From: Prorocentrum cordatum
Lineage: Eukaryota
Length of the DNA stretch: 64,000 nt
NCBI GenBank assembly: GCA_963575745.1
Contig: CAUYUJ010000314.1
Location: 310,001 to 374,000, forward strand
Direction of reading: 5' to 3'
The notes under the pieces were generated by a model that was not told the DNA's origin, did no database searches, and worked only from the letters and a program-made list of their open reading frames with translations. Numbering within the stretch: position 1 is the stretch's first letter; the number at the start of each line of letters is the position of its first letter. The position numbers were made by a program, and so were the translations under genes. Positions 7,037 through 56,385 of the stretch are shown piece after piece.

Positions 7037-7040
7037 GCGC

Positions 7041-7335: not shown

Positions 7336-7370
7336 TCCTTCGACTAAGATCCCGAGTGTCAGGGCTCACA

Positions 7371-7750
7371 TGGAGCTCTAACATAGTATGTTAGAGCTCC
7401 CAGGAGTATGTTAGAGCTCCAAGGGAGCTCTAACATGCCATGTTAGATTTGAGCTCCAGGGAGCTCTAACATGGCACATGCCATGTTAGAGCTCCCAGGG
7501 AGCTCTAACATGCTATGTTAGAGCTCCCATGGAGCTCTAACATGCCATGTTAGAGCTCCAAGGAGCTCCCTGGGAGCTCTAACATGGTATCACGTGCCAT
7601 GTTCGAGCTCCCAGGGAGCTCTAACATGGCATGTTAGAGCTCCCTGGGAGCTCTAACATAGCATGTTCGAGCTCCCTGGGAGCTCTAACATGGTATCACG
7701 TGCCATGTAAGAGCTCCGTGAGAGCTCTAACATACTATGTTAGAGCTCCC
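7371..7750. repeat. Array of palindromic units GAGCTCTAACAT-N-ATGTTAGAGCTC within the intron
   Basis: Alternating 12-bp arms that are exact reverse complements, e.g. 7373-7399. Confidence 0.9.
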
Positions 7751-7777
7751 CTCTCCTCCATTCGCCCCTCTCCGCAG

Positions 7778-8400
7778 GTGGTGCTCGCCGACCTCGGCTG
7801 TGTGCAGATGGCGGATCCCCACGGCAGGTTGAAGAGGAAACTGCGCTACAGCCCGACCTGCGATGACCTCAGAGTATGCACGCCCGCTTACAGAGCGGTA
7901 GGCGTTTTCTTGGGGAACCAGCGCTACTCAGAGGACCTGGACATGTGGTCCATCGGGTGCCTGATGGCCGAGTTGTATACGCGCAAGGTGTCGTTCCAAC
8001 CGCCAGAGCCTTGCGGCGCGCTCGGGCATCATCCAGGGGGGCACCCGAAAGACTTCGTGGTTTTCTGCAGGGAGGTTTTGGGGATCCCAGGCAAGGAGCC
8101 AGGGTCGGGAGACTTCTACAATTACGAGGGCCAGGAACCCGCCCCGTGGCTGGACAACCTGCCTTTCTTTGAGAAGTGGTTCAAGCGGTCGGGCGGGGAT
8201 TGGCTAAAGGCTGAAACAGCGAAGGCACTCGACGGCCGAGGGCGCTGGCCCGTTGACGAACTTGCAGACTGCCCCCCAGACTTGTTGAAGGCCGCCGGGA
8301 GCTGCCTGCTTTGGCGCCCTGGCGCCAGAGCGACAATCAGTAGTCTAAGGGCTCGTCGCTTCCTGCAGCCGGCTGGCGCCCAGCTCGTCGCGCGCATCTC
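7778..8400 (+). CDS. Ser/Thr protein kinase, exon 2 (subdomains VII-XI)
   Basis: Motifs VVLADLG, CTPAYRA, YSEDLDMWSIGCLMAEL and CLLWRPGARAT, giving a CMGC-like appearance. Confidence 0.85.
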
Positions 8401-9376
8401 ATGGCGCAGGGGAAAAACGGCACGGGCGCGATAGCGGAGGCCGGGCTGGACCCAGGCTTGCTCCGCTTCTTGCAGAGAGACCCGTGCTGGCAGATCTTGG
8501 CCGAGGAGCGCCTGGACACGGGGGCAACCGTCTCCAAATGCGTCCGAGGCGACGAGGCGGCAAAGGGCTTGAAAACAGAGGTCGCAGGCGTCGTGGACGA
8601 CGAAAGCCCCCCGAAGTGCCGCAGCCTCAACAAGGGCGGGAATTTGCAGATCACCCCCTCGCCCCACATGGCCGCCTTCGTGCGAGCGCTGCGGAAGAAG
8701 ATGCGCCCGTGGCTGCAACAGCTGGGAGACAAAATGCGCGAGGCTGTCAAAGCCGACGGCATGCCACCTGCCATCGTCGAGCAGAACGGAAAGCCCATCA
8801 TGACAGAGCACTTCGCCGACAACGCGTTCGCGTACGCATCGATCCAGCTCATGCAACCAGGCGCACGGGGCGATGGTTGGCACACAGATGGCGGATGCTC
8901 CCTGTTGCACGCGGCCGTGACGGTTTTCGGGGCGCGCTCCGTGCAAGTGAGGATCCCAGGGGTCCTGGGAGCACATGATGGGGCGTCACCCTCGAGCACA
9001 GCCTCCTGCGGAAGGGTCGTCACCCTCGAGCAAAAGCATGGGTCCTTCTACATGGGCACCCTGTCCTCCCTCGAGCACAACGTGCATCACCACGCCTCAG
9101 GACTGTTTCGCCGCCCACCACGAGCTGCAACAGCGCGTAGACGACAGCAGGCTGCAGATCGCCGTCGTGGTCCGCTCCGACGTCTTTCGGGAGTTCAGGG
9201 CGCGCAGGATCGACGCCACGCCTGGCCCGAAGGAGTTCTTCAACGTCGTGAACCACGTCGTGGCCGATCACCTGGCGCGGGTCCCCGTGGCGTTGCCCGA
9301 CCTCGCGGAGGTGCTTGACGAAATGCGGTGGCCCGGCCTCACGGAGGTGCTTGACGAAATGGGGCTTTCCGATTAG
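8401..9376 (+). CDS. 2-oxoglutarate/Fe(II) dioxygenase domain, AlkB-like; frameshift near 9100; probably fused to the kinase
   Basis: ASIQLM...GWHTDGG gives the HxD motif. LEQKHGSFYMG...EHNVHH gives the distal His. After a frameshift, QIAVVVR resembles the AlkB terminal strand RxxxxxR. The frame overlaps the end of the kinase frame. Confidence 0.7.
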
Positions 9377-39796: not shown

Positions 39797-39808
39797 ATAT
39801 TCGTTTGC

Positions 39809-39848
<40 letters not shown>

Positions 39849-40898
39849 CTTGTTGTTGTTCTTGTTGTTGTTGAACATTATTACTTCTAAAGAATAATTA
39901 TTGTTGGGACCCCTGGTGCACGGCCCCCTCGCCGCGCCTAGGCCGCAGCCATGTTTTCATCATTTTCGTGAGGAAGTCTCCGGCAAAACGGGTTGGTCCG
40001 GATCCGGTTGTTTTGTTCCCCCCCGCTTTCCCTGGCAAAAAACAATATAAAATGACATTTCTTGTTCTAAGATAACCACATTTCAAGAATCCATTGCAAA
40101 AAATAAGGTAAAGTGGACATTCGCGCGCGCAAGACGGAATCCTTCCAAAACCTGAGTGTTCGTAACGATTTTAACATAAAAACATAAAAACAAAAAACAA
40201 TGGTTTTTCAAAAAAAAAAAAAGTGTCAACATTTCATCCCGCGCGCTCTTGCGGATTTGTAGGAAACCCAACACTTTTTAAACATTTCTGTCAAACGGGC
40301 TTTTGCGAGCAACTTTTTCACGTGCTTCGAACTTCTCCAACAACGGTTGCGCACCTGCCAGGGCCATCATCCCTGTCAAATAATACCATGCGGGACACAT
40401 TCGTTTTTTCTTCGCGCGCGCACGCCGAAATCTTCAAAAACCATTGGGTTTCTTAGGAATTTTAGCACCGCGCAACATAAAATCATACGAATCGCACCGT
40501 AGGTCCTCGAAAAACATCTGTACGAATTTTCAAAATTTCTACCCGCGCGCGCTGTCCGAATCTTAAAAAACCAATGGTTTTTCAACATTTATGTTACACG
40601 AGCTCGCGCGAGCTACTGTTGGAACAGGGGGAAAAGTCGTATACTAAGCTAGCGTCCAGAAAATGTTACCACAACAAGTCACTGTACCCATGCGCCAGTG
40701 TAGTAGCCACGGTCGTCCGCAGGCCACGAAGTGAAGTGTCCGAACGTCATAGGGCGGGAAGCTGGGTGTGGGTGGTGGCGAAGAGTCGTTTGGAAATGTG
40801 GTAGAGCTTGAACCGGCCCCCCACAAAGTGGGGGTATTGGCGGGCGTCGTATGCAAACCCTGGCACTGGTGAGAACGGAGTGTCCCCACGTGCTAGTA

Positions 40899-40940
<42 letters not shown>

Positions 40941-40942
40941 GC

Positions 40943-40981
<39 letters not shown>

Positions 40982-41107
40982 GGTTGTTCTTGTTGTTGTT
41001 CTTGTTTTGGTGTGGAGCGGGCGCGGAGCCCCGCCCCCCCGAGGCCCCCTTCCGGGGGGGGTGTTGAGTTGCTGGTTGCTTGGGGGTTTCTGCATAGCAG
41101 TCGCCAA

Positions 41108-42409: not shown

Positions 42410-44400
42410 CGAAACGTCTCAGGTAGAACGGGCCAAACCATCTCGCGCTTAACATCTTCGAGCTTCGCATTGCGAGGATGGCTCAAGCGAAACGGGCCAG
42501 ACCACCTCGCGAGGGACATCTTGGAGCTCAGTATTTGAAGGATGTCTCAAACGAAACGGGCCGGACAACCTCTTGCACACGTTCTGACAAGTCCACGTCA
42601 CATTCGTTTCCCGTTAGGTCCTCTCCTGCAACTCCTTTCCTTCTCCCTCCTCCTCCTCCTTCTCCTCCTCCTCCTCCTCCCCCTCCTCCTGCCTGCTCCC
42701 TCATCCACATCCTCCTCCTCTTCCTCTTCCTCCTTCTCCCTTCCATCTCCTCCTCCTTCTCCTTCTCCCCCTCCTCTTCCTCCACCTCCTCTTCATCCCG
42801 AACGGCATCTCGGAGCCCAGAGTTGCGAGGATGCCTCCAGCGTAACGGGCTGGACCACCTCGCGCGCAGCATGTCGGAGCTCAGAGTTGCGACGATGTCT
42901 CGGGCGAAACGTGCTGCGAGGAAGTCTCAGGCGAAACGGGCCGGACCACCTCGAGCGCGGCGTCTCAGAGCTCCGAGTTGCGGGGGCCTCCTGGGGCCTC
43001 CTGGGCCTTCTGGGGACCTCCTGTGGCGTCCTCCTGGGCCTCCTGTGGCCTCCTGGACCTCACCTGGGGCTTCCTGAAGCCTCTTGGGGCTCCCAGGGGG
43101 GGATATCTAACATGTGGTGGCCGTCTGGGCTGGGCGGGCCACAAGAGCAGGAAAAATCAACGAATCGACACCGGATGTGGATTAACTTGACACGTTCTGA
43201 TAGGGGGCCTCCTGGGGCCTCCTGGGAGCCTCCTGGGAGTCTCCTGGGGACCCCTGGGGCCTGTCCTGGGCGTCCTTCGGCCTCTCCTGGGCGTCCTGTC
43301 TTGGGAGCCTCCTGGGGAGCTCTCTGGGGCAGGGTCCCAGGAGGGATATGTAACATGTGGTCTTCTGGGCCCCCAGGCTGGACCACCTCTTGCGCGGCAT
43401 CTGGGAGCTCAGAGTTGCGAATATGTCTTGTGCGTAACGGGCCGGACCACCTTGCGCACGGCATCTCAGAGCTCAGAGTTGCGAGGATGTCTCAGGCGAG
43501 ACGGGCCGGACCACCTCGCGCAGGGCATCTCAGAGCTCAGAGTTGCGAGGATGTCTCAGGTGAAACGGGCTGGACCACGTCGCGCGCGGCATCTGGGAGC
43601 TCAGAGTTGCGAGAATCTCTTGTGCGAAACGGGCCGGACCACCTTGCGCACGGCATCTCAGAGCTCAGAGTTGCGAGGATGTCTCAGGCGAGACGGGCCG
43701 GACCACCTCGCGCAGCATCAGAGAGCGCAGAGTTGCGAGGACGTCTCAGGTGAAACGGGCCGGACCACCTCTCACGCGGCATCTCGGAAAGCAAAAGTGC
43801 GAGGATATCTCAAGTGAAACGGGCCGGACCACCTCTTGGGCGGCATCTCGGGGCTCAGAGTTTGGAGGATGTCTCAAGCGAAACGGGCCGGACCACCTCT
43901 CGCGCAGCATCAGAGAGCGCAGAGTTGCGAGGGTGTCTCAGGCAAAACGGGCCGGATCACCTCGCGCAGGGCATCTCAGAGCTCAGAGTTGTGAGGATGT
44001 CTCAGGTGAAACGGGCTGGACCACGTCGCGCGCGGCATCTGGGAGCTCAGAGTTGCGAGGATGTCTCAGGTGAAATGGGCTGAACCACCTCTTGCGCGGC
44101 AGCTCAGAGCTCAGAGTTTCGAGGATGTCTCAGGCGAAACGGGCCAGACCACCTTGCGTGCGGCATCTGGGAGCTCAGAGTTTGGAGGATGTCTCAGGCG
44201 AAACGGGCCCGACCACCTCTCGCGCGGCATCTGGGAGCTCAGAGTTTCGAGGACGTCTTAGGCGAAACGGGCCGGACCACCTCTCACGCGGCATCTGGGA
44301 ACTCAGAGTTTGGAGGACGTCTCAAGCGAAACGCCCCATCCCGGACAGCTCAGAAACGAGAGTTGCGAGGATGTCCCAGGCGAAACGGCCCGGACCACCA
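42410..44400 (+). repeat. ~59-60-bp tandem repeat (CTCAGAGTTGCGAGGATGTCTCAGGCGAAACGGGCCGGACCACCTCGCGC..GGCATCT..GAG), interrupted by CCT and CCTGGG tracts
   Basis: About 17 contiguous units at 43378-44400, plus units at 42410-42580 and 42800-42985. Confidence 0.95.
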
Positions 44401-45050
44401 CATTTGTTTGAGGGCGTCTCTGCTTTGACTTCCTTCGGCCGGAGGTAGCTTCTATCAAAACAGCACCCCGTTCAGCGAGCTGCTTGGGGAATGATGTCCT
44501 TTTGCGTCCCAGCCCGAGGCGCCCACAGTGGGCGGCGCGGCCGTTGCCCCTGACGATGGCAGCGCCCCGGAGGCGCCGCGCGGCGTCGGCTGGCGTCGGT
44601 CGGCCAGCGTTGATCGGCCAGCGTGGGCTCGGCAGGTCCAGACCTCCTCGGGCCATCAAACATCGTGACGAGAGTTTTTTTTGGGACAGAGAGGCGACCA
44701 CGACATCGCTTGAGTGACCCGTGCAATCCGTGACAGGACGCGGCAGAGACGGACCGGTGATTTTATTTACAGCAACATCCCAGAAAAAAAAAACAAAACA
44801 GCAAACAAAAACATCGTGACGAGAGTTATGTTCTTCGAAGTGTGCTTGAGGGCCACATTCCAGAAAGAACTTCGAGCACCCCGAAAAGTATCGAAACAGT
44901 GTCTGCCCGACTCGTTGGCGAAACTTTGAACGAGTACCGCCTCCCAGGGCCCGATACGTGAAAACCATCCAGTTTCAGTGCTTGGTGCTCGAGATTCTTG
45001 ACGCTTCGCGGATCCCCACCAGCCACATCCTAAGCGACAAGCACTACGAG

Positions 45051-48000
45051 ATGTCGGAAGCGCGCTACGGAGACGGGTGGCCCGACCCAAACACCTTTGT
45101 CACCCCTGGGAATTTGTGGAGCAGGTGCACTGGATCTTCCTGGGACTCAAGTCACCGTGTGTATATTGAGCGAAGGCCCTGGCCAGGCTGGAGGCCCGTT
45201 CAACCCTTGGTATCCCAAGACGGTGTACGCTCACTCCCTGGTCTCGTGATCCCAGAAGACGCTTGCACGTGCCCACCACCTACCCTCTCTGGGACGACGA
45301 GCCAACGTACAACTGCCCTGGAGGTACCAGGTCCGACCCAGAGCAAATGAGGTCGCACCTGATGGACACACGTGAGGCTACACGGACGGGCCTCAGACAG
45401 TCCGACCTCGGTGGCGTGGCCAGAGCGCTAGCAAAATCGACCATCGGACCACCGCCTGCTGCGCCTGGGCAACCTACAGACGCCTCGGATGGACCTTTAC
45501 CTCCGCCCCCGCCGCCCCACCCTCCGCCCGCCTGGGACCAGCCCAACCAGCAGCGAAGGGTGATGCCGTCCAAGGAAGTAGATGCATCACCAGCAAGCCC
45601 GTCGGAGCAGCAGCTGGATGATTCGTTGGCACTGCAGGCGGCCGCCGACGTAGCCAGTCTCTACTCTGTGCCCCTGGACTCTCCGCCTTCCAGGGTCCAC
45701 CCCAAGGCGGCGCTAGGGGACCTGCCCGAGGCCGTTCGACTCCCCTCACAGTGGCCTTACTCTCTTCAGGATCGTGGGCAGACACTTCGGAGGATCGCCT
45801 GGGTGGAAAGCCAGGCCTCGGTCGAGACGGTGGACAACAGAAAAGACTCCACACGCGAAGACCTGGCCAGGAAAGGTAGCTGCGCGCTCGGCGTCCGCGT
45901 CACTAGGATCGACGCTAACTCGGACCTGGGCGACCTCGACACCTTCCGGCTACGCAACGCGCTGGACCTTCCAGAGGGCAAGGAACTCTACCTGCTGGAG
46001 TGGCCCTCTAAGTACAAAGTGGCATCCAGGACCCACGAGGGAGACAAGGAGGGCAAAGAACTGTACATTTCTGTCACGGGCCCCACAGTCGACAAGATTG
46101 CTGACGTCACGGTCTGGTGGCCCCCCTCCCTGGGCGGTGCCATCCACCCAAGAGACGCCCAAGTGCTCGGCCTCAGCCCGTCCACCAGGTACCCCTCCGA
46201 CAGGTGCGTAGTGCTGTACAACAGTGGAAAGTGGGGACCTTTCCACGAAGACGAGACCAAGGCGAAGCGCCCCCCAAACGAAGACGCCCCCTGGTATCGA
46301 GTAGACGAGGCCCCCTCCGACATCCAGTTCTGGCGCCAGTGTTGGGCTCTCGCCCAGATCTACCACCTCCGACAGAACGCCGCGGATCTGTTCGCCCGCC
46401 AGCTGTCTCCCCTGACGTTCCTCTTAGCCTTCTTGCACGCCCCACGTGCCGACCGACTCGCGGCCGACGACCTGAGGGGCACCAGCGCAGTGGGCTTGAA
46501 CCTGAGGGCCAGGGCTGCCGTCACCCTGGGCTGCGACGTTCCCGACGCCGACCACACTCAGGCTGTCCGATGCGGCCTCCTACAACAGGCACCCCCGCTT
46601 CCCCTGGGTTTGAAGGCTTTCTCCGATGACGAGATCTCGGACGCGACAGGTTCTGTCCTCCAGAGGGTGCGCCCCGCTCCCAGCCTGGATACCTTCCGCG
46701 ACAGGGTGGACAAACACAAGCCAAACAGCGACGCGATCAGGGCCCTTCAGGCCACCTTACCTCACCACGCCGTACTGGTGCACGGGCCCCCTGGGACAGG
46801 CAAGACCACCTTTTCTGTAGCTTGTCTGGACATGTGGGGATGCTGCCTGCGCCCGGGGCAAGCAGTTGCGTTGGCAGCCGGCTCGAACGCAGCGGTAGAC
46901 CAACCAGCCCTGGCGATGGCCGAAGCACATCGGCAGTGTCGTCTCGAAGTTCGTGCGCCTGGCAAGGAAGGAGCGCGTCAACGAGGCACTCGTCGACCTG
47001 ACACCTGGGGGCCATTACAAGAATGCCCGCGGGGAGTTCCCGTTCCAGGACGGGGGCAAGAGCCAGGACTTCAAGCCCTACAAGGCGAGCCTGCTACGAG
47101 ACGCCAGGGTAATCATGTCCACGCACGAGGCGGCCGAGGCCCTCGGACAGGAAGACAGCCCCCACATCGTCCTCCTGGTAATCGACGAGGCTGGGCAGGC
47201 CACGGAGCTTCACGCGCTCATGTCTATGGTAAACCTGGTCAACAGCGGCGGAGCCCTGGTCCTGGTGGGCGATCCGAATCAGTTGCCCCCCTACGGTTCT
47301 CTCCAAGCTTGCGAACGACCTGGGGCTCTGTGTTAGCATATTTGACAGGATGTTTCACGCGCTCCGCGGCCAAGACTCGGCTGTGGTCCACCTGTCGATC
47401 TGCTACCGCATGCGTCCGCAGCTACTCGCCTTTCCGAACGCAGCCTACTACGGCAAGGACATGACGTCTGGCATCATGAACCCGCTCAGGGACAGGCCCA
47501 TCGTTGAAGGCATCCCATGGAGAGACATCACACCCTGGGAACCCGGGCGACTGGCTGAGCTGGCCACTCTCACCGGTTCCGACGAGGACGACTTTCGCAC
47601 GACCCTCAAGCAGTTGGACCCTCCGCAAAACGGAGACAAGCACCGTTTCTTGCTGGTCGGCACACCCTCCTGGGAAGTAACGTTTAACCTCCAACCTGGC
47701 TGCGCCAACCTCCCCGAGGCAGCACAGGCCGTGGACATCGTGCGGGCACTCCTGCCCGAGCTCGAAAAAGGCACCACCGTCAGAATCGTTGTCGGCTACC
47801 AGCTCCAGACGGCCATCCTCGTGGATGGCTGGCCGCAGGGTCCCCGCCATCTGCGGTGTCCTGCGGAATTCCAAGGGTGGCAAGAAGGGGAGGTCAGGCA
47901 AAGGGAAAGGCAGCGTTGCTCGCGACGGACAAGACACCCCCGGCCCCGGACCCGACCCTCAAGAGCACACGGTGGACGTTCACCGGTGGGAAACCGTCCT

Positions 48001-51000
48001 TTCGGGAGGACCGCAACGCCCAAACAGCCATCGGCACTGCTTTCCCTGGACTCAGGCAGGTTGCGGGCGAGCACATGAAGAGTGGGGCTCTCGAGCTCAC
48101 CACCATCGACTCCAGCCAGGGTGGTGAGGCGGACATCGTAATCGTACTGACTACGAGGAGCAACGGGAGTCACAATTGGGGCTTTGTCGACGACGCCAAA
48201 CGCCTGAACGTGGCAATCACTAGGGCCAAGCGGAACATCCTGATGTTGGGAGACGGGCGCATGTTCGCCAATGCCACCTGGTCCCAGCTGCGCGTGCTCT
48301 CTGAGTGCGGGCGCTTGACCCGCCTCCGGGTTCGATTCGGGGGCAGCGCCCCCGCTGGCCACAGGAGATCCCTGGTCATCGACGAGAGCTTTGACCCGCT
48401 GCCCGCCCTCGCCACCTGGGTACCGTCCCCTGTTGCCTGGAGCTGCGATGCAAAGGGGGAGAGCGGGCGAAACGAGCTAGATGCGGCCAAAAAGAAAAAA
48501 GCACGCGACGCCCAGGCGAGCGGTTTCGCCGAGCGCTACAACACTCCCCTGGATGAGGACTTCGACTGGGACTCCCTGGGTAAGCTCATCTCGGCCGGTC
48601 TCAACGAGATCCTCTCGACGCCTGCCTTCCACGTGCTCATCTATCTGGTGGCGGGACTACACCCGCACGAGTTCTCGCTGGCGGAAACACCGCGACAACC
48701 GGGCAAACTCGACCGCAAGGCTTGGTCGAACCTGGGCTTCCTGTTCGACATGTCCCTGGGACTAGACGCGACCAATCTAGTCTACAACATGCTCTGGGCT
48801 GCCATTGCGTGGGCGCTCGGCCTTGGCACTCCCTGGCATGACGCGAACTACGCAATCCACGACGACTCCCTTCCACCGGTGCCGCGCGTCAAAGGAAGGC
48901 GTGTAACACTCTGTGGGCGGCGCCAGTGCACCCCCAAGGGGCTCTTCCGACAGGTCCCCCAGGCGTGGAGCGCAGCAACCAAGGATTGCTGCAGGCACAG
49001 GAAGCACCCTGGAATGGCTGGCCTACAGGAGATCCTCCGTGGCGCTTTCGACGACCCTAAGCGGGACCAGATCCGTAAGGAGATTATAGACACCGACGGC
49101 CTCCCCATGGAATCCTGCAAGGCCCGGTCGCTCTTGGTCGTCATGATGCTAATGCTTCGCGAGCCACGCGTGTTCCTGTGGCCTTTCTCTCACGCAGAGC
49201 AGACCGGGGATGTCATCGAAGCCATCCTGGGTTTCTGCGTCCCCTGGCAAGAAGCGCTCCGAGGGTTCCGGCACAACTTTGCACGAACCTGGGGACTCAC
49301 GCTAGACGACCTAGCCGACCTCCGCGGTCGCATCGAGGCAATCCTGCCCCACATCTCCAAGCTCGTAGCGGTGGCGCACCACCGCCCGGAGGCGCGGGCA
49401 GCCGGCTGCCCGCAGACCTGGAGTGAAATGGACAGGCAGGACTTTCAGTTGAAGGCGCTGATGCTCGTCCTCGAGAAGATCGTCCCAGCCGCCTCCCTGG
49501 CTCCCCTGGGTACACACCGCTGCTCGGTGTGCGCGCTTCACGTCGCGCTTGCGGGTTCCGACGCCTCCCTGGGTGACGACGACCGGCTTGCCGGGCTCGC
49601 TTACATCGGCGGCGGATTCGCATTATCCAACACCGACCTCAACGCCCCCTTGCCGCCCACCCCAGCCCCAGGCACCAGGCAGGACCCTCCGCGCATTCCC
49701 GACGACAGGCTGACACCCGAGCAGAAAATTTGCAGGTTCAAGTGCGACAGCTGCGGTAAGGACCAGCTACGCTCCACCGATGGCACGTGTATCTCCGACG
49801 ACGCGCGCCTGATGGTAGCACAGAACACGCCCCAGGCCTACCTCAACGGTGCGAACATGGGATGGCACTGCGAGACCTGCTGGATCCGATACCTGGAGGA
49901 ACAGGGCATTCCAGCACCAACCGGCGCAACAATCGCCGACAAGGTCAAGGAGCACGAGCAACAGAGGACGGGTGCCGCAAGCGACGAAAAGGCGGACGCT
50001 CTCCCCTCCCTGGGTCACCTCCCACTTGGCTATGGATGCAGCCCCCAGGCGGACACGAGTTCGCTGTCGGATCTCATCATGACGCCGACCGGCATGCAGA
50101 TCCCTGAGCGCGCCAACACCACCATTCCCATCCTATGGATCAGAGACGAACGGTTCGGCCTCAAAGCTGCGCAGAGCAAAATCTACTCCGCTCGGTGCGA
50201 CACATGCCCCCCAGGGGCTCCGCTCCTCGTCTGGAGCACAGGAGCTCCTCCCCTGGGCTGCCTCATTTGGAAGCCAGCGGAGGGGGTAGGGGTTCCCGAG
50301 CAGGCCGGACTGCCTCCCATCGAGAGGCGAGCCATAGCGGGCCATAGCCTGGTGGGGGCGCAGCTGGAACGCCACCTGGTGCTGCCGACGCTGCCTGGTC
50401 CCCGTATGGAATATCGGTCTTGCTACCCTGGACCACATCCTTGATAGGGACTTCAGAGCGCTGTGCCCAGCCGAGGCCCCTGTCCTCCCGACGCTCAACA
50501 GCCAGATAGGAGCTGAGGTGCCAGTGGACATATTCAGCTCTCTCCCATGGTTAGGCGCTGACGCCAAGGCCCAAGATCGCTTCGCCAAGGCCGGAGCGGC
50601 AAACCTCCCTGGGTCTAGCGCCACGGGTGGTGCGGCCTCCGCTGCCGAGCGAGCCCCCGGGTCGCTAGCACAGCTCATGGAGCTCCTGCCAGAGCTGCCA
50701 GTCCCGCAGGGCCCGCTCCTGGACAGCAGGGATGTCAACAACCCCACGCTGAGCCCAGACGACCCCAGGAGCGGACCGGGCAGCGGAGACGTGTCCGTGC
50801 AGCGACTCCTGGTAACCTACCTCCGGGGCTTCCACCCTGGGCTGGACTACACCTGGCGACAGTTCTGTCTCACTAACCGCGACAGCAGCATCCCAGAGCC
50901 TAGGAGCGACGAAGCCTCCTGGCCGGGCGGACGTCTGACGGAGTTCCTCAGGACGGCGTACGGCGAATGCATCCCCTAGGATTGTGTCCCGCTCAACCAG

Positions 51001-52251
51001 CCCTGGGAAGGCAAACGGCTGGCCGCTGCGCGGGTCGTCTCCCGCCTCACCAACGGCGAGAAGCTTAGGGAGTCCTGGGAGAAGCACGCCTCGATCCTCG
51101 CCCCGGCGAGTGGCCTCAGCCCTGTCAGACATGAAATGGGCACACTGACGAGTTTCCTACTCAGCCTCAGCGCCGACGCCCTGGCCTCGACGACCATCAC
51201 TTCCCTGGCCGAGTCGCACGTGCAGACCATGAGTGAGGACAGACCTAACACCCCTACGGCGGCCGACGCAGACAAACCCTTGGGTACGAGAGACGACGAC
51301 TCGCGTCTGGGTAATTCGGACCTGCCCGACCACGCTGCCAAGGACGAGAGCGGTGAAGACGAGATCCCTCCTACGGAAAAGGTGGAGTCACCCGACTTTG
51401 GAAACCCCCACGAGTCTCCTCCTCCTGTATCATGTTCGGGCTCTGCCACGGAGGTCGACGACGACGGCCCTGGCGACGAGGCGCCTCAGCGGAGCCCATC
51501 GGCAGACAGCTCGGAACCCAGCTCTGCCCGCGACCCGATTGCTGCCTGGGGTGGCCCTGCCAGCGCCGACCAAATTGCCAGTGAAGCCAGGGGATCATAT
51601 TACGACGAAGTCGCCCGCGACAGGGGCGACGCGCGGAGTCGTCGTCCCCCACTACGCAACCCACAGGTTCCTGGACATAGGCCTACCTACCCTCGTTCAG
51701 CGGAGCGACATGCACTCAACCTGCTGACCGACTCGCATGGGGGCCCCAAGTACAAGGTCTGGCTGGGCACCGTGGACTTGGAGCGCCGCGGAGAGCCACC
51801 CGCCAAACGCCCCACCAGGCACCAAACGGAGTTGGGTGCAGTATTCTGCGCTCTGTGGACCGCCTACACGCAAGGCATTCGGCTCCCTGGATCCAGGGGG
51901 CCCAAATCAGACCCGAGGCTGCACACGGACGCGACCATCAACGAGTTTTTGGACGACTGGAAGGGCTGCGGATACAACGCCTACTTGATGGACACGAGGT
52001 TCGACTACCGCATCGATTGGACCAAAGTGCGGGCCGAGCACCTGCGTCACACCCGGCCCGACGGCCAGGGCAAGGGCAACCACCAGCAGAGCAGCTGGCG
52101 CGACCGATCGACAAGCTCCTGGGACACCTGGGGCACCTGGCAGAGCGACTGGGGCGACGGCTGGCACGACGACCGTTGGCAGACGGGAGGCAAGCGTGGT
52201 GGAGGCAGACCGGGCGAGCGTGGGGAAAAGAGGCAGCGATGGGGAGACTGA
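45051..52251 (+). pseudogene. Giant, apparently intronless frame (~2,400 codons, about 5 frameshifts and 1 in-frame stop): Upf1/Sen1/MOV10-type SF1 helicase, RNase III-like region, two CxxC..CxxC zinc fingers and a W/G-rich tail
   Basis: Helicase motifs appear in order: LVHGPPGTGKTT, AGSNAAVD, VIDEAGQATE, LVGDPNQLPP, CYRMRPQL..FPN, TIDSSQGGEAD, RLNVAITRAK. Adjacent ORF pieces (45051, 45263, 46953, 47350, 47856, ~50345/50518, 51136) abut and join by frameshift or by the TAG at 50977-50979. Confidence 0.85.
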
Positions 52252-52309
52252 GCTCCCTTCCCACCCATCCCGCCACCTAGGCGGACAGATATTTCAACCT
52301 TAATACACA

Positions 52310-52800
52310 CTTAGAGCGGCCTTCAGCTGCCTCTCGTTCTCTCTCAACCGTGTGGCAGCCTCGCTGCCTCCCTCCCTGGTTCACACACTTCCTGCCTTTG
52401 GGCCCAAGTGTGTCGACCAGCAATGCCATCTGCATCGCAGCGCGGGGGAGCGCAGCGCGCAGACCCTAGTTGGCCCCTGGCCCCGCTGTAATGGTTCTCA
52501 CCTGTGGCCCGAGTGGTCCCGTGCCCGGCTACGCTGCTTCGGGGCCGACCGAGGGCCACTCCCGAGACGCGCTTATAATCCCTGGGTTTCTCTATCAAAC
52601 AGCGGGCCTTCAGCTGCTCCTTCGACGACAGACCCGCCTGGCGGCATCCTGCCGCCCCTCCTGGTACGTGCACTTCCTGCCTTTGGACCCAAGTGTGTGT
52701 GCCAGCAATGCCGTCCGCATTGCAATCGCGTGTTGCGTGTGGCCACCGTGGCCCCTGGCCCCGCTGTAGCTGTTTTCACTTTGCCAGGTTCGGCCTGGCC
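52310..52800. repeat. Diverged ~285-bp tandem duplication just downstream of the helicase frame
   Basis: CACTTCCTGCCTTTGG.CCCAAGTGTGT...CCAGCAATGCC occurs at ~52386 and ~52671. Confidence 0.75.
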
Positions 52801-54194
52801 CGCAGCTATGAGACCGACGACTTGGTGGTTTTCGCCCCGTCATGCTCAGATCTGCGCCTCTACTCCCTGGGCTTCCCAAGTTACTACGACCTTCAGCCGT
52901 GCATCTCTACCTTTCCTGGGAGCGACCCTGGGCTCGGACCCATCGTCCTTGGGTCACGTGGTGTTCAGGCAGTCCTTTGACGTGGGTCGCCCCGCCGTTG
53001 TGGCGGAATGCCCGCCTGGTCCGCTTGCACCGTCCTCTGACTGGGTCGCTGACGTGCTCCCATTGCTGCTTGCCGCGGTTGGCCGTGTTGTGCCACCCTG
53101 TGGACAGTGATGCACTCGGTCTCCTCCTCATCGTCGCTCCCACGCGCAACCTGGTTGTGCGACCACTCACTGGGACTCTGTGACCGTGAAGGACTTGCTG
53201 ACGTGGGTATACGGCAGCGTCGTCCTCTACGAGCGCTCTCCTCTACCTGGCGGTGCGTGGGTTGCGAGGCGCTGGTTGTCACTTAGTCGGTTGGTGCACG
53301 CCCACTTCCGCTTGACCGTGTGTCCCTCGCCAGGTTGGATGCTTGTGTACTTCTGCACTGCGGCACACCATATTTCTGGTCTCCTGCGTGCAGGCGCATC
53401 TCTCAGCAGTTGTTCCGAGGTTGCCCCAGTTGTCTATGACCTCTGGCTCACTCTGTCAGCCGCCGGATGCGTTTTTCTGAAGCTGCGACGGTTCGCTGGC
53501 GCTGTCAGAATTCCCCTCCTTGCTGGACGACGTCAGCTACGCTTTCGGTCTGCTCATACCCGACAGACACCCTGGGCTGACATTTCTTGCACGGAGATTG
53601 GTTCCCACCACCATGCGATTGTCGGTTGTCACGACGCACGACCGCCTGGCCTCTCAGACGCCCTGGGTTGCTGCTTGCACCGCCGCCTGATCCGCCGCCC
53701 CCGCGCGCGCCCGGGTAATTCGTCACGGCCGCAGCCCGACCGTGACCCCTCGCCGCCGGCGCTTCCGCCTGCGGCTGTAAAAAAAGTAAAAAACATATCC
53801 CCACCAGCCCATCCAAAAACGATGCCCAGGCGATTGCGGTGATCGGGGAAGTGAGGGAGCATACAGAGTAGCAAAGGGCTGGGGGACCCGTCTTACCCAA
53901 GAGGGCGAGGATGGAGGAGGAGTCGGAGCAGGATGAGGAGGAGGAGGGGGAGGAGGGGGAGGAGGGGCAGCAGGTGGGAAAAGTGGGAGGAGGGAGGAGG
54001 GAGGAGGGGGAATAGGCGGATGATGAAGAGGAGGGGGAGGAGGAGGAGGATGAGGAGGGGGAGGAAGAGAAGAGGAAAGGAGGAGGAGGAGGATGAGGCT
54101 GATAAAGTGGAGGAGAAGGAGGAGGAGTAGGCCGACAAGGAGGAGGAGGATGATAAAGATGAGAAGGAACAAGAACAATGACGTGCACAAGAGC

Positions 54195-54947: not shown

Positions 54948-55479
54948 TTCTGGTGATCAAGGCGAAAGCCGGTAGGAACATCATAAGACGAGGGGCTTTT
55001 CGCCAATTTCGGCCTCCGGGGGCCCTCACAGGGTCTCGGCCTCCGTCGAAAAGCGACTCAGGATGAGACACTGGTTCCGGGGAGTGGGTCGAGACTTCTG
55101 GGGGTCGACGTTACGAAGAAGACCGTGGCGTCGGAGGCCTGGGGGGCGGCGGCGGCAGGCGGCACCTGCCGGCGGAGGCCGCCAGTGGCTGGCTGGCGGG
55201 TGGGGCCAGCGATGTTTTGCCACGCTGTCGCCCGTTGCCGCCTCGGTGCCGCCTCGTGCGCTGGGTGGCTCTGGCGAGGCTCCGCCACATTGCCGCCCGC
55301 TGCTGCCTCGCTGCCGCCTTGGCGTGGCGGCCGGCGTGGTGGCCGGCGGCCCGCGGCCGCCCAGCGATGGCACTCCATGCGCACACGTGCGTGTTGGGTG
55401 CAGCTCCCTGCGCGCGTGCGCGCGCAAGCTCAGAGAAGCGGCCCTTCCCGTTCTTGTCCGGCGAGGTTCCCGAGAATGG

Positions 55480-56385
55480 CGATTTCGCTTGAGATATCCT
55501 CGCAAAAATGAGACCTTCGCGATATCGCGCTGAACAATAACAAGCGTCTCGCTAGAGACATCCTCGAAAATCTGATGGCCGCGAAATTCAGCAATCTGTC
55601 CAAACTTGCGTTTCGCCTGAGAACCCCTAGCCGCAATGAGGTGTCGATGGATGTGTATTATTACCTCTTGTTTTGAAAACTAAGTTTTCGCTAGGGACGT
55701 CCTCAGAAAATGAGCGGCAGCACGCCGGACCAGAAAAAAGAGCACGGCAGAACATCTGCATTCCGTTCAAAAAATGAAATGTTCTCATCGTTTTGACTTC
55801 GTTCTTGAAGTGTGCTTCAAGATGAAGAAATGAGAGCCCACAAAGGACTTCAACATGGCTCCAAGAGCGCCCTGATGACTGCCGAATCTGAAGATTTCGC
55901 TAGGGACATCCTCAAACAATGGAAAAACAACAGCAGCTTTTTGAAAACTGCCGTTCGAACATCGTCTTGGGATCGTTCTTGAAAAGGTTTCCAGACGGCC
56001 CAAGGCAGGCTCCTAAAATGACGATTTTGCTAGGGACATCCTCAAACAAGAGATGTGTGTGACATCGCATTGGCATCGTTTTTGATGGCATCGAAACAGC
56101 CCCGAACGAGCCCCAATATGACTCCAAGAGCGCCCTCGAGATTCCTCAAAATGCGCATTTCGCTCGATACATCCTAGAAACATGAGTTGTCCGCAACACC
56201 GTCTTTCACACAAACAAGCATTGCGCTTGAGACATCCACCAAAAAATGAAACCCGCGAATTTAACAAACGTATGGAAATGGGGATATCGCCTGAGACATC
56301 CTCGAACAAATGAGATGTCGAAAAGGCTGTAAGACCATGCGTGTTAAAACCTAGCTTTTCGCCTGAGACGTCTTCAGAAAATGGG
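55480..56385 (-). repeat. Ten spaced copies of TTTCGC(C/T)(T/A)GAGACATCCTC, the reverse complement of the core of the 42.4-44.4 kb tandem repeat
   Basis: Motif starts at ~55483, 55547, 55611, 55686, 55895, 56025, 56158, 56221, 56285 and 56357. Confidence 0.85.

What the first reader, a model, noticed from the sequence alone, without database searches (positions are those of the whole stretch)
45051..52251. Giant intronless Upf1-like helicase / RNase III-like / zinc-finger / GW-tail protein: candidate mobile RNA-silencing or anti-silencing factor
Seen: a complete SF1 Upf1-like motif set (46770-48260), then two RNase III-like motifs, two CxxC...W.CxxC fingers (FKCDSC...WHCETC; ARCDTC...WCCRRC in the shifted frame) and a Trp/Gly-rich end, all in ~7.2 kb with no evident introns. 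Established: Dicers pair RNase III with an SF2 helicase, not SF1. SF1 helicases MOV10, Armitage and SDE3 act in silencing, and GW/WG motifs bind Argonaute. Some RNA viruses and retroelements carry SF1 helicases or RNase III silencing suppressors. Inference: an unusual SF1-helicase and RNase III fusion carried by a retro- or virus-derived element.
Basis: partly seen in the sequence, partly recalled or inferred. Interest (0 to 1): 0.8.

Follow-up and report, generated by a model that had tools for sequence, protein, structure and literature searches.

The report
Dead copy of giant dinoflagellate helicase gene
This stretch is a frameshifted, dead copy of a many-copy, intronless dinoflagellate gene for a 2,500-residue Upf1-like helicase with an unrecognised Cys/His-rich domain behind it; the gene family is real and seems undescribed, but neither an RNase III activity nor a mobile or viral carrier is shown.

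Summary
The window copy is dead. It has six frame breaks (~45262, 46936-46947, ~47286, ~47849, ~47998, 50330-50349), a TAG at 50977-50979 and a decayed N-terminus. Pfam finds only the Upf1-like SF1 helicase core (AAA_11/AAA_12); the best solved relatives are UPF1, Sen1 and IGHMBP2. Behind the helicase lie a conserved ~350-residue Cys/His-rich domain of no recognised family, CxxC...WxCxxC zinc modules (three per intact protein) and a Trp-rich tail. The "RNase III" strings are conserved in the family. However, Pfam and a PDB profile search find no RNase III, and hhalign gives probability 1.6-6%, reached by 2 of 40 shuffles. The glutamate matching E41 of the signature motif is Gly in 27 of 28 sequences. 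The family has many copies: 1920 contigs 90-99% alike in one run, and named gene models on 12 Prorocentrum cordatum-labelled scaffolds. No RT, transposase, terminal repeats, poly(A), spliced-leader relic or IMG/VR relatives were found.

The parts
44850..45023 (+). Decayed N-terminal region (frame 3). It keeps only weak residual likeness to the N-terminal CxxC...WxCxxC module of intact relatives. The window reads LEIL where P0009 has CEIC. No in-frame start codon.
   Evidence: Contigs of two runs part from the window at 45024 and read ...ICQEP... there (table 7).
45024..45260 (+). First segment with detectable homology (frame 3): HILSDKH...GWPDP..., matching P0009 residues 65-142.
   Evidence: tblastn 51% identity; coordinates.
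45261..45268 (+). Frame break 1 (frame 3 to 2). Most other copies carry one more base here.
   Evidence: table 4: G put in behind 45262 in 90.6 of 121.9 depth in X1 and 6.11 of 6.11 in X2.
45269..46948 (+). N-domain of about 450 residues with no recognised family, plus the start of the helicase core (motif I GPPGTGKT 46784-46807; Ia AAGSNAAVD 46874-46900), frame 2.
   Evidence: 45% identity to P0009 146-679. No PDB sequence hit for 45269-46699.
46936..46947 (+). Frame break 2 (frame 2 to 3). Other copies hold extra sequence here (...RLDQDTGFPD...), matching P0009 KLDEDTHFPG.
   Evidence: loose ends at 46936 and 46947 in X1, X2 and X3 (table 7).
46947..47291 (+). Helicase domain 1A continued: motif II VIDEAGQA 47178-47201, motif III GDPNQLPP 47268-47291 (frame 3).
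   Evidence: (AAA_11, 52.1 bits).
47278..47292 (+). Frame break 3 (frame 3 to 1), inside motif III. Other copies lack one base.
   Evidence: table 4: one base left out at 47286 in 79.2 of 195 depth (X1), 7.53 of 7.53 (X2), 18.2 of 22.7 (X3) and 16.8 of 16.8 (X5).
47287..47849 (+). Helicase domain 2A, first part (CYRMRPQLL 47401-47427), frame 1.
   Evidence: AAA_12, 32.9 bits; 57% identity to P0009 796-982.
47850..47998 (+). Lys/Gly-rich linker, readable only in frame 2 (LRNSKGGKKGRSGKGKG 47861-47911). It is bounded by frame breaks 4 (~47849) and 5 (~47998).
   Evidence: One search compared with the P0009 linker. table 4: TC put in behind 47849 (21 of 100 depth in X1; 4.72 of 7.41 in X2); one base left out at 47998 (21.6 of 21.6 in X1; 9.65 of 9.65 in X2).
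47999..48281 (+). Helicase motifs V (TIDSSQGGE 48102-48128) and VI (VAITRAKR 48210-48233), frame 3.
   Evidence: (AAA_12, 65.6 bits).
48540..49649 (+). Conserved Cys/His-rich domain of no recognised family ('domain Y'). Motifs: GLHPHEF 48654-48674; DRKxWSxLGFLxD...NLVY 48711-48788; REPR 49158-49175; GDxxEAxLGxCxP 49203-49244; AHH 49371-49388; CPxTW 49407-49421; CxxC 49515-49541. It holds both 'RNase III-like' strings.
   Evidence: Conservation. 108 representative relatives. No Pfam, PDB or PADLOC match.
49737..49883 (+). CxxC...WxCxxC zinc-ribbon-like module (FKCDSC...WHCETCW).
   Evidence: the same module sits at P0009 1627-1672. One family member hits Zn_Ribbon_TF at E 0.0055.
50190..50394 (+). 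Second C-terminal CxxC...WxCxxC module (ARCDTCP...WCCRRC), cut by frame break 6.
   Evidence: P0009 1775-1835.
50330..50349 (+). Frame break 6 (frame 3 to 1): a 10-base tandem duplication (two copies, 8 of 10 bases alike).
   Evidence: Read directly; frames.
50977..50979 (+). In-frame TAG stop where P0009 has Glu (...YGREIPE...).
50980..52089 (+). Poorly conserved, Pro/Ser/Asp-rich stretch, then a small conserved C-terminal segment (KYKVWLG 51748-51768; ELGAVFCALW 51829-51858).
   Evidence: (29% identity to P0009 1820-2519). No PDB sequence hit.
52090..52251 (+). Trp-rich tail (SSWRDRSTSSWDTWGTWQSDWGDGWHDDRW, 52090-52179) and the TGA stop at 52249-52251.
   Evidence: Like tails occur in P0009 and near the end of P0010 (8 Trp in 60 aa, 4 GW/WG).

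Best explanation
The locus is a pseudogene: one decayed copy of a lineage-restricted, many-copy, intronless gene family of Prorocentrum-type dinoflagellates.

Intact members encode proteins of about 2,500-2,950 residues, laid out in this order:
1. an N-terminal CxxC...WxCxxC zinc module;
2. an N-domain of about 450 residues of unknown kind;
3. a Upf1-like SF1B helicase core;
4. a conserved Cys/His-rich domain of about 350 residues that matches no known family;
5. two more CxxC...WxCxxC modules;
6. a long low-complexity stretch;
7. a small C-terminal segment and a Trp-rich tail.

Shown: the homology, the architecture, the breaks, the many copies, and the absence of recognisable mobile-element or viral genes.

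Inferred:
(a) The copies arose by ordinary gene duplication in a duplicate-rich genome, most likely through retroposition of a processed mRNA. The unit is intronless and seems to end close to the stop codon.
(b) The intact protein works like other accessory-domain Upf1-like helicases such as HELZ2, ZNFX1 or MOV10. It would be a 5'-to-3' RNA translocase that hands its substrate to the metal-binding C-terminal domain (possibly a nuclease), with the zinc modules binding nucleic acid and the Trp-rich tail recruiting a partner.

The copy in this window makes no such protein.
For: Homology and architecture:
- P0009 matches at E 3.1e-181, 49% identity and 100% cover of the post-helicase part.
- tblastn gives six collinear pieces over window 45024-52176, equal to P0009 residues 65-2519.
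- P0010 is 33% identical and shares the layout from the N-terminal module to the C-terminus.
- Pfam shows only AAA_11/AAA_12-type helicase families in the window pieces and in 13 relatives.
- The best PDB sequence matches are UPF1 1.8e-26, Sen1 5.6e-23 and IGHMBP2 2.9e-22.
- The zinc module occurs three times in P0009.

Breaks.
- Other copies are in frame at four of the six frame breaks, and at a fifth they carry extra sequence matching P0009 (tables 4 and 7).
- The window's own variant is also present in contigs at three sites: about 31 of 121.9 depth at 45262, about 116 of 195 at 47286, and 79 of 100 at 47849.

Many copies:
- Run X1 gives 1920 contigs on 7.3 kb, of which 275 are 99% or more alike, 707 are 95-99% and 938 are 90-95%.
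- Of 30 representatives looked up, 12 are P. cordatum-labelled models on 12 different scaffolds.
- Six intact ORFs of 2535-2945 aa sit on six contigs.
- There are 12-13 lineages below 60% identity.

Repeat unit roughly equals the gene: only 2 of 1920 laid contigs run over the ends of 45000-52300.

Background from papers (passages read):
- P. cordatum has 83.7% of genes with introns, 11.7 exons per gene and 64.8% dispersed duplicates (PMC10666404).
- Retroposition is rampant in dinoflagellates (PMC11453091; PMC6050394).

No mobile or viral machinery.

Functional analogy: HELZ2 has zinc fingers, Upf1-like helicases and an RNase that cooperate (PMC10516660, passages).
Against: Marks of retroposition are missing:
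- There is no poly(A) run after the stop.
- No spliced-leader relic was found; the 21-mer and the 16-mer each gave 0 matches at up to 3 mismatches. The 5' end of this copy is decayed, so this is weak evidence.
- No target-site duplication was found.
- No intron-bearing parent gene was found.

The copy pattern fits a selfish element as well as a host gene family. It shows many diverged lineages, near-identical copies, many broken copies, and only two source labels among the 16 named representatives.

The function is pure inference. The new domain has no detectable relative of known function, and its fold could not be predicted.

Expression evidence is thin. It consists only of four fragments (two of them 52% and 80% identical to the window) in one transcriptome-derived EukProt set, whose label (Pyramimonas sp.) does not fit a dinoflagellate.

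The contigs laid are short (about 120-480 bases) and may come from more than one organism. Copy counts are therefore rough.
Confidence: 0.55

Rival explanations
1. The family is the protein of an undescribed self-propagating element. The helicase, the Cys/His-rich domain (acting as a nuclease or recombinase) and the zinc modules would together move or copy the 7.6-kb unit. The window would hold a dead insertion.
For: - Many copies at 90-99% identity.
- Dispersal over 12 scaffolds.
- 12-13 deep lineages.
- Broken copies elsewhere: P0015 and P0011 each come from a Logan contig of 12,363 bases and cover adjoining parts of the protein, most simply one contig holding a broken copy.
- Intronless in an intron-rich genome.
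- Only two source labels among the 16 named representatives.
- One giant ORF joining zinc fingers, an SF1B helicase and an unknown metal-binding domain recalls Helitron RepHel in outline (Helitron layout taken from the abstract of PMC8788227 in the listing).
- Atlas feature hits to RAG1 clusters at 0.77-0.79.
Against: - No terminal repeats or target-site duplication around this copy.
- No transposase, RT, Rep or integrase family in any family member.
- The helicase is Upf1-like, not Pif1-like.
- The Atlas scores lie in the range that shuffled proteins reach a third of the time.
- The repeat unit seems to end at the gene's own ends, as for a retrocopy.
- Dinoflagellate host genes are commonly many-copy.
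Confidence: 0.2
2. The domain behind the helicase is a diverged RNase III domain, so the intact protein is an SF1-helicase-driven dsRNA nuclease with an Argonaute-hook tail, acting in or against RNA silencing.
For: Three collinear likenesses to RNase III appear in the hhalign alignment:
- GLHPHE against ALTHRS;
- WSHLGFLxD against NERLEFLGD;
- GDxxEAxLG against aDxxEAxIGA.

The second motif is nearly invariant: G309 33 of 33, D310 29 of 33, E313 35 of 35.

Three P. cordatum-labelled models (P0035, P0050, P0059) lack profile positions about 186-262. This brings the two motifs to about RNase III spacing.

The reversed-profile control scores lower (P 0.28-0.5 against 0.006-0.013).

The Trp-rich tail has 3-4 GW/WG in the window copy and in P0010. 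GW/WG repeats mediate Argonaute binding (abstracts of PMC2965232 and PMC2910046, listing).

Argonaute exists in dinoflagellates (PMC5245829, passages).
Against: - No RNase III Pfam hit in 8 window pieces, 13 relatives or 69 members, even at E<=10.
- A PDB profile search found nothing.
- hhalign probability is 0.7-6.2%, and 2 of 40 block-shuffled profiles reach the observed score.
- The position matching E41 is Gly in 27 of 28 sequences. The Asp matching D45 is absent in the RING-bearing relative P0100.
- E41, D45 and E117 tolerate no substitution in E. coli RNase III (PMC10037077).
- Dinoflagellates already have a canonical Dicer.
- 3-4 GW/WG is few.
Confidence: 0.15
3. The gene is intact in the organism, and the breaks are errors of the assembly.
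For: At four of the six frame breaks, contigs from public runs carry the in-frame form, and at a fifth they carry extra sequence matching P0009. At 47998 every covering contig does so (21.6 of 21.6 depth in X1; 9.65 of 9.65 in X2).
Against: - There are seven lesions of different kinds: single-base indels, a 2-base one, a longer deletion, a 10-base tandem duplication and a nonsense codon. The N-terminus is also decayed, with its zinc ligands replaced.
- The window's own variant is seen in contigs at 45262, 47286 and 47849.
- The in-frame contigs are 90-99% alike and so are mostly other copies, not this locus.
Confidence: 0.05
4. The locus is a piece of an integrated virus (an endogenous viral element) that brought an SF1 helicase.
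For: A weak Pfam Viral_helicase1 match in P0009 (E 2.9e-05, with no stretch passing on its own). A nidovirus ORF1ab helicase in PDB matches at E 0.0061.
Against: - Cellular Upf1-like helicases score far better (UPF1 1.8e-26).
- Two IMG/VR scans with four motif patterns found no relative.
- No capsid, polymerase or other viral family appears in 112 window ORFs.
- The composition of the locus (GC 0.61-0.645) is like its flanks.
Confidence: 0.04

Closest known systems
UPF1 / Sen1 / IGHMBP2 (Upf1-like SF1B helicases)
   Same: The helicase core is the same kind. Pfam AAA_11 and AAA_12 score above cut-off, and motifs I-VI are present. The best PDB sequence matches are UPF1 1.8e-26, Sen1 5.6e-23 and IGHMBP2 2.9e-22. 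The NCBIfam 'IGHMBP2 family helicase' model hits at 137 bits, below its 348.9-bit cut-off.
   Different: Everything outside the core differs. There is no UPF1 CH domain, and the N-terminal 477 residues give no PDB hit. A 1,400-residue C-terminal extension with a new domain follows the core. The gene is many-copy and intronless.
HELZ2 (zinc fingers + Upf1-like helicases + RNB exoribonuclease)
   Same: A giant protein with N-terminal zinc fingers and a Upf1-like helicase, followed by a further catalytic-looking domain. In HELZ2 the helicase and the RNase cooperate on structured RNA, and a role against viruses or mobile elements is proposed (PMC10516660, passages read). This is the best model for how the intact protein may work.
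   Different: There is no RNB, CSD or second helicase here. The domain behind the helicase matches no family, and no activity is known.
ZNFX1, MOV10, SDE3, Armitage (Upf1-like helicases of antiviral and silencing pathways)
   Same: A Upf1-like core, with zinc-binding modules behind it as in ZNFX1. ZNFX1 matches the core at E 9.5e-08.
   Different: The zinc modules are not NFX1-type; no such Pfam hit appeared. No MOV10-type chain appears among the 21 PDB matches. No phylogeny was made.
RNase III / Dicer
   Same: A nearly invariant GDxxEAxLG string resembles the second catalytic motif of RNase III. hhalign gives a collinear but non-significant alignment.
   Different: The 10-residue signature motif is not kept: Gly stands at the E41 position in 27 of 28 sequences. 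There is no Pfam or profile support. The helicase is SF1, not the SF2 of Dicer. There is no PAZ, no second RNase III domain and no recognised dsRBD.
Mokosh defence system helicase MkoA (PADLOC)
   Same: The helicase core matches MkoA models at 1.4e-40 (P0009) and 3.9e-63 (P0100). That Mokosh pairs such a helicase with a nuclease is recalled, not checked here.
   Different: The match covers the helicase core only. The new domain hits nothing in PADLOC. Mokosh is prokaryotic.
Dinoflagellate retrogenes (processed, retroposed gene copies)
   Same: An intronless, dispersed, many-copy unit that ends near the coding sequence, in a lineage where retroposition is rampant.
   Different: The defining spliced-leader relic is not found. 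There is no poly(A) tail, and no parent gene is known.
Helitron RepHel
   Same: One large intronless ORF with zinc fingers and an SF1B helicase, many copies, and decayed copies.
   Different: The Helitron helicase is Pif1-type and lies behind a Rep/HUH domain (abstract of PMC8788227, listing). Here the helicase is Upf1-like, no Rep family is found, and the domain order differs.

Membership tests
Upf1-like SF1B helicases | Pfam AAA_11 (1A) and AAA_12 (2A) domains above the gathering score | tested here: met
   Window pieces score 33.3 and 52.1 bits (AAA_11) and 32.9 and 65.6 bits (AAA_12), against a 27-bit cut-off. P0009 scores 90.5 and 99.6 bits.
Upf1-like SF1B helicases | Conserved motifs I, Ia, II, III, IV, V and VI in order | tested here: met
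   GPPGTGKT, AAGSNAAVD, VIDEAGQA, GDPNQLPP, CYRMRPQLL, TIDSSQGGE and VAITRAKR lie between 46784 and 48233, spread over four reading frames. The motif names are recalled.
Upf1-like SF1B helicases | Closest solved relatives are members of the group | tested here: met
   UPF1 1.8e-26, Sen1 5.6e-23, IGHMBP2 2.9e-22; DNA2 1.7e-08; ZNFX1 9.5e-08.
UPF1 orthologue (NMD factor) | N-terminal CH zinc domain and overall UPF1 layout | tested here: not met
   The UPF1 match covers only P0009 615-862 plus a second stretch of the core. The N-terminal 477 residues give no PDB sequence hit at E<=10.
RNase III family | Match to Pfam Ribonuclease_3 / Ribonucleas_3_3 | tested here: not met
   No such hit in the 8 window pieces (E<=0.1), in 13 relatives (E<=0.01) or in 69 family members (E<=10). 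The control worked: PF14622 found RNase III in 61 of 61 bacterial genomes.
RNase III family | 10-residue signature motif holding E38, E41 and D45 (E. coli numbering; PMC10037077) | tested here: not met
   In the hhalign pairing the family reads S-H-L-G-F-L-x-D. The E41 position is Gly in 27 of 28 sequences. The D45 position is Asp in 24 of 28 and is absent in P0100.
RNase III family | Second catalytic pair D114 / E117 | tested here: met
   GDxxEAxLG, with D in 29 of 33 and E in 35 of 35 sequences. This holds only under the hhalign pairing, which is not significant.
RNase III family | Significant profile-profile similarity | tested here: inconclusive
   Probability 0.7%, 1.6% and 3.3-6.2%. 2 of 40 block-shuffled profiles reach the observed score. 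The reversed profile gives P 0.28-0.5. The RNase III profile was bacterial only (31 sequences).
RNase III family | All-alpha RNase III fold and dimeric catalytic valley | not testable with these tools
The Atlas holds no model.
Dicer | SF2 helicase, PAZ and two RNase III domains | tested here: not met
   Only SF1 helicase families were found. The Dicer layout is taken from PMC5245829 passages.
GW/WG Argonaute-hook proteins | Repeated GW/WG in a disordered, Gly/Ser/Asp-rich stretch | tested here: inconclusive
   The densest 60-aa stretch holds 8 Trp with 3 GW/WG in the window copy, and 8 Trp with 4 GW/WG in P0010. The P0009 tail holds several. These are few motifs, and no scoring tool was at hand.
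GW/WG Argonaute-hook proteins | Binding to Argonaute | not testable with these tools
Processed retrocopy (dinoflagellate retrogene) | DinoSL relic upstream | tested here: not met
   0 matches to the 21-mer and 0 to the 16-mer at up to 3 mismatches in the 64-kb window. The motif was confirmed in PMC6050394. The 5' end of this copy is decayed.
Processed retrocopy (dinoflagellate retrogene) | No introns; the unit is limited to the transcript | tested here: met
   The locus is collinear with the P0009 ORF. Only 2 of 1920 contigs run over the ends of 45000-52300.
Processed retrocopy (dinoflagellate retrogene) | Poly(A) tail and target-site duplication | tested here: not met
   No A run after 52251. 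No direct repeat of 10 bases or more between 44300-45100 and 52200-53000.
Transposon or retrotransposon | Transposase, RT, integrase or Rep gene in or beside the unit | tested here: not met
   None in the locus, in 13 relatives or in 69 members. None in 112 of the 119 window ORFs of 200 aa or more; the 7 not scanned there lie inside the locus.
Transposon or retrotransposon | Terminal inverted or long terminal repeats | tested here: not met
   The only inverted repeats between the flanks are simple-sequence ones (CCT against GAG). Beyond that there is one 10-mer inverted match.
Endogenous viral element | Relatives in viral genomes | tested here: not met
   Two IMG/VR scans found 40 and 52 pattern matches, and none encodes a relative.

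The most novel reading that the evidence does not exclude
Intact members of this family are the single protein of an undescribed class of self-propagating element in dinoflagellates. On this reading a Upf1-like helicase is coupled to a new metal-dependent nuclease or recombinase domain (the Cys/His-rich domain with the HPHE, GDxxEA, AHHH and CxxC motifs) and to three zinc modules. That would explain the many near-identical and many decayed intronless copies in a single lineage.
Probability: 0.12. Interest if true: 0.8.

Novelty: new variant of a known kind. Interest (0 to 1): 0.4.

Why it matters
Upf1-like helicases joined to accessory nuclease or zinc-finger domains (HELZ2, ZNFX1, MOV10) are central to RNA surveillance and to defence against viruses and mobile elements in animals. 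Almost nothing is known about such systems in dinoflagellates, whose gene control is mostly post-transcriptional.

This family joins a Upf1-like helicase to a conserved 350-residue domain with no detectable relative. It exists in many copies and appears in none of the papers that my searches found. If the new domain is a nuclease, the family would be a new helicase-nuclease machine. If it drives its own spread, it would be a new kind of element contributing to a 4-Gb genome.

The copy in this window is only a pseudogene. Its value is as a pointer to the family.

Tried and rejected
Structure and complex prediction
- Structure prediction on alignment A4 was not accepting jobs. No fold, and so no fold search, could be made.
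- Complex prediction (two copies of the new domain, to test dimerisation) was not available.

Expression
- The look-up of sequencing runs listed no RNA holder.

Whole genome and earlier findings
- No genome is held for this window.
- Earlier-findings look-ups by place, sequence and words returned nothing.

Homology searches that gave little
- The search for homologous proteins with 'near' lengths found nothing.
- The alignment-based 'longer' search found only P0009 again, plus one weak helicase, P0129.
- The ESM Atlas gave no usable hit for the 686-aa piece. For the 370-aa domain it gave only RAG1-type clusters at 0.77-0.79, which is chance level.
- PDB sequence searches of the post-helicase piece, the N-domain and the C-terminal part found nothing meaningful.

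Alignments
- MAFFT alignments of all 109 relatives (A2), and of the set without the two longest (A3), misplaced many fragments. I kept the 68 relatives that aligned at 27% identity or more (A4) and made an HMM-based alignment in a script.

RNase III control profile
- The search for related loci with E. coli RNase III returned only relatives 96-100% identical, which are useless for a profile.
- I therefore took 30 RNase III loci from 61 genomes of one phylum.

Considered and dropped
- Introns instead of frameshifts. The frame changes lie within 0-10 bases, or flank a linker that reads in a third frame.
- A clean 5' truncation at 45024. Weak likeness continues upstream, so decay is more likely.
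- The simple-sequence and 64-base satellite arrays on both sides as element termini. Their order is not mirrored.

Full report
**What is at the coordinates**

The window is GC-rich (0.48-0.73 per 2 kb, about 0.61-0.645 across the locus) and full of simple repeats. Stop-to-stop ORFs of 764, 145, 281, 918, 213 and 423 codons on the + strand tile 45170-52251 in different frames.

Pfam finds AAA_11 in the first two pieces and AAA_12 in the next two, all above the 27-bit cut-off, and nothing else above cut-off. So are the two 'RNase III-like' strings, both CxxC...WxCxxC pairs and the Trp-rich end.

**Do the pieces belong together?**

Yes. A word-based search among longer proteins found one protein, P0009 (2541 aa). 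It matches the post-helicase part at E 3.1e-181, with 49% identity and 100% cover.

tblastn of P0009 against the window gives six collinear pieces from 45024 to 52176, covering P0009 residues 65-2519, in frames 3, 2, 3, 1, 3 and 1. A seventh segment, the Lys/Gly-rich linker inside the helicase, reads in frame 2 (47861-47911).

An exhaustive HMMER search with the 686-residue post-helicase piece found 108 cluster representatives at E<=0.001, of which 64 are at <=1e-10 and 9 at <=1e-30. Five have 1000 aa or more, six have 300-999, and 97 are fragments under 300 aa.

The 2945-aa P0010 (33% identity) shares the layout with P0009 from the N-terminal zinc module to the C-terminus.

**This copy is dead**

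The frame changes are not introns. They lie within 0-10 bases of each other, or flank a linker that reads in a third frame. The lesions are:

1. About 45262, one base missing.
2. 46936-46947, a stretch missing. Other copies read ...RLDQDTGFPD... there, like P0009 KLDEDTHFPG.
3. About 47286, one base extra, inside motif III.
4. About 47849, two bases missing.
5. About 47998, one base extra.
6. 50330-50349, a 10-base tandem duplication.
7. TAG at 50977-50979, where P0009 has Glu.

Upstream of 45024 only faint likeness remains. The zinc ligands of the N-terminal module are replaced (LEIL for CEIC), and no start codon is in frame.

Contigs of four public runs were laid on 45000-52300:

| Site | In-frame form in other copies |
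|---|---|
| 45262 | 90.6 of 121.9 depth in X1 |
| 47286 | 79.2 of 195 in X1; 18.2 of 22.7 in X3; all depth in X2 and X5 |
| 47849 | 21 of 100 in X1 |
| 47998 | all covering depth in X1 and X2 |

The window's own form is also present at three of these sites. Table 4 was cut (13 rows not shown). It lists nothing for the 10-base duplication, and no row was shown for the stop codon, so those two are known from the window alone. An assembly artefact is unlikely (about 5%) given seven lesions of different kinds.

**A many-copy family of one lineage**

Run X1 gave 1920 short contigs on 7.3 kb: 275 are 99% or more alike, 707 are 95-99% and 938 are 90-95%. Three other runs gave 179-285 contigs each. 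That is roughly thirty sequence variants per position in X1. The contigs may come from more than one organism.

Thirty of the 108 representatives were looked up:
- 12 are gene models labelled Prorocentrum cordatum, on 12 scaffolds of different length. Some carry a second nr label, Polarella glacialis, on the same accession.
- 4 are from a EukProt transcriptome set labelled Pyramimonas sp. CCMP1952.
- 14 are unnamed.

The cluster look-up also shows six intact ORFs of 2535-2945 aa on six contigs of 12.6-27.1 kb. Within two well-covered 81- and 93-residue segments, the family splits into 12-13 lineages below 60% identity.

The window's GC fits P. cordatum (59.7% genome, 65.9% CDS; PMC10666404, passages). 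I infer a Prorocentrum-type dinoflagellate as the source.

**Is it carried by a mobile or viral element?**

I found no sign of one.
- Pfam finds no RT, integrase, transposase, Rep or capsid family in the locus, in 13 long relatives or in 69 family members.
- None appears in 112 of the window's 119 ORFs of 200 aa or more. The other 7 lie inside the locus. Only a protein kinase at 5924-8431 is recognised.
- The flanks share no direct repeat of 10 bases or more, and only one inverted 10-mer. The longer inverted matches are simple CCT/GAG runs.
- Only 2 of the 1920 laid contigs run over the ends of the stretch. I read this as the repeated unit ending near the gene's own ends.
- Two scans each of the JGI metagenome contigs and of IMG/VR found pattern matches but no relative.

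The locus also lacks the marks of a retrocopy. There is no poly(A) after the stop and no spliced-leader relic in the window (motif confirmed in PMC6050394).

Even so, an intronless 7.6-kb gene stands out in a genome where 83.7% of genes have introns and the mean is 11.7 exons. Retroposition is described as rampant in dinoflagellates (PMC11453091 and PMC6050394, passages). Retroposition or plain duplication of a host gene is my best reading (about 0.55). A new self-propagating element is the main rival (about 0.2).

**What the protein is**

The helicase core is Upf1-like:
- PDB sequence matches are UPF1 1.8e-26, Sen1 5.6e-23 and IGHMBP2 2.9e-22, far ahead of ZNFX1 (9.5e-08) and a nidovirus helicase (0.0061).
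- NCBIfam's IGHMBP2-family model scores below its cut-off.
- PADLOC's Mokosh helicase MkoA matches the core only.

The CxxC...WxCxxC module occurs three times in P0009, at 17-57, 1627-1672 and 1775-1835. One family member hits the TFIIB zinc-ribbon model at E 0.0055.

A relative, P0100 (1730 aa), puts a RING finger before the same helicase-domain-module set.

The Trp-rich tail is found in three lineages, with 8 Trp in 60 residues in both the window copy and P0010.

**The RNase III question**

The domain behind the helicase (window 48540-49649) is strongly conserved. It carries the motifs GLHPHE, DRKxWSHLGFLxD...NLVY, REPR, GDxxEAxLGxCxP, AHHH, CPxTW and CxxC.

No Pfam family matches it, even at E<=10 across 69 members. 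A family profile finds no PDB chain (best E 0.16).

I built a 31-sequence bacterial RNase III profile and an HMM-based family alignment. hhalign then gave these results:
- It pairs GLHPHE with ALTHRS, WSHLGFLxD with NERLEFLGD, and GDxxEAxLG with aDxxEAxIGA, but at probability 1.6% and P 0.031.
- With default settings only the second motif aligns (probability 3.3-6.2%, P 0.006-0.013). A reversed profile gives P 0.28-0.5.
- 2 of 40 block-shuffled RNase III profiles reach the observed score.

Under that pairing the E41 position is Gly in 27 of 28 sequences. D45 is kept in 24 of 28, D114 in 29 of 33 and E117 in 35 of 35. In E. coli RNase III, E41, D45 and E117 tolerate no substitution, and the enzyme works as a homodimer (PMC10037077, passages).

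Three P. cordatum-labelled models lack profile positions about 186-262, which brings the two motifs to about RNase III spacing. These are gene models, though, and may be mis-spliced.

I therefore do not file the domain under RNase III. A diverged RNase III-like fold remains possible (about 0.15 as a working enzyme).

**How it most likely works (inference)**

By analogy with HELZ2, the intact protein is probably a 5'-to-3' RNA translocase. In HELZ2, zinc fingers, Upf1-like helicases and an RNase cooperate to degrade structured RNA, and a role against viruses or mobile elements is proposed (PMC10516660, passages).

Here the helicase would feed substrate to the metal-binding C-terminal domain. 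The zinc modules would bind nucleic acid. The Trp-rich tail would recruit a partner, such as Argonaute. GW/WG repeats mediate Argonaute binding (abstracts of PMC2965232 and PMC2910046), and a canonical Dicer and an Argonaute exist in dinoflagellates (PMC5245829). None of these steps is shown.

**Novelty**

Three literature searches found no paper describing this family or an SF1 helicase joined to such a domain. Supplements of the P. cordatum genome paper were not examined and might list the gene models.

The family is a new variant of a known kind: a Upf1-like helicase with a new accessory domain. The feature in this window is an ordinary pseudogene of it.

Noticed in passing
window 43376-44333 and 55470-56309: A 64-base satellite (15 copies, 83% matches) lies just upstream of the locus, with further copies at 42427-42572. 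A related 64-base-spaced array lies downstream in the opposite orientation. By eye, its conserved core is the reverse complement of part of the upstream unit. CCT/GAG runs and GGGGCCTCCT-like microsatellites also flank the locus on both sides, but their order is not mirrored.
   Followed up: partly
window 1774-5208 (+): An open frame of 1145 codons with a protein-like, non-repetitive translation (P0130), a Lys/Asp-rich tail and positive AT skew. No Pfam family matches at E<=0.01. It may be another large intronless gene of unknown kind.
   Followed up: partly
window 5924-7378 and 7625-8431 (+): Two ORFs carry the N-terminal part (E 7.1e-19) and a later part (E 1.4e-07, just under cut-off) of a protein kinase domain. 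This is probably one gene with an intron or a break. It is the only other recognisable gene in the window.
   Followed up: no
window 52364-52439 and 52649-52724: A two-copy direct repeat (76 bases, 82% alike, 285 bases apart) lies just downstream of the stop codon.
   Followed up: no
window about 44658-44676 and 44809-44827: A 19-base direct repeat (seen by eye) brackets an A-rich stretch just upstream of the decayed N-terminus.
   Followed up: no
proteins P0016, P0019, P0080, P0116 (EukProt EP00959): Four family fragments (two of them 80% and 52% identical to the window copy) sit in a transcriptome-derived set labelled Pyramimonas sp. CCMP1952, a green alga. All other named relatives are dinoflagellate-labelled. 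The set may be contaminated or mislabelled. A search for 'CCMP1952' found no paper.
   Followed up: partly
proteins P0035, P0050, P0059 (P. cordatum-labelled): Three diverged gene models lack the Cys-rich insert of the new domain (profile positions about 186-262). Either a subfamily lacks the insert, or an intron was predicted there.
   Followed up: partly
protein P0100 (1730 aa, unnamed source): A relative has a RING finger (zf-RING_2, 28 bits against a 27.3-bit cut-off) in front of the same helicase, new domain and zinc-module set. The post-helicase module is therefore combined with different N-termini.
   Followed up: partly
window 39805-39873 and 40900-41006: Long (TTG)n microsatellites (23 and 36 units) lie in a lower-GC stretch (0.50) at 40-42 kb.
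   Followed up: no
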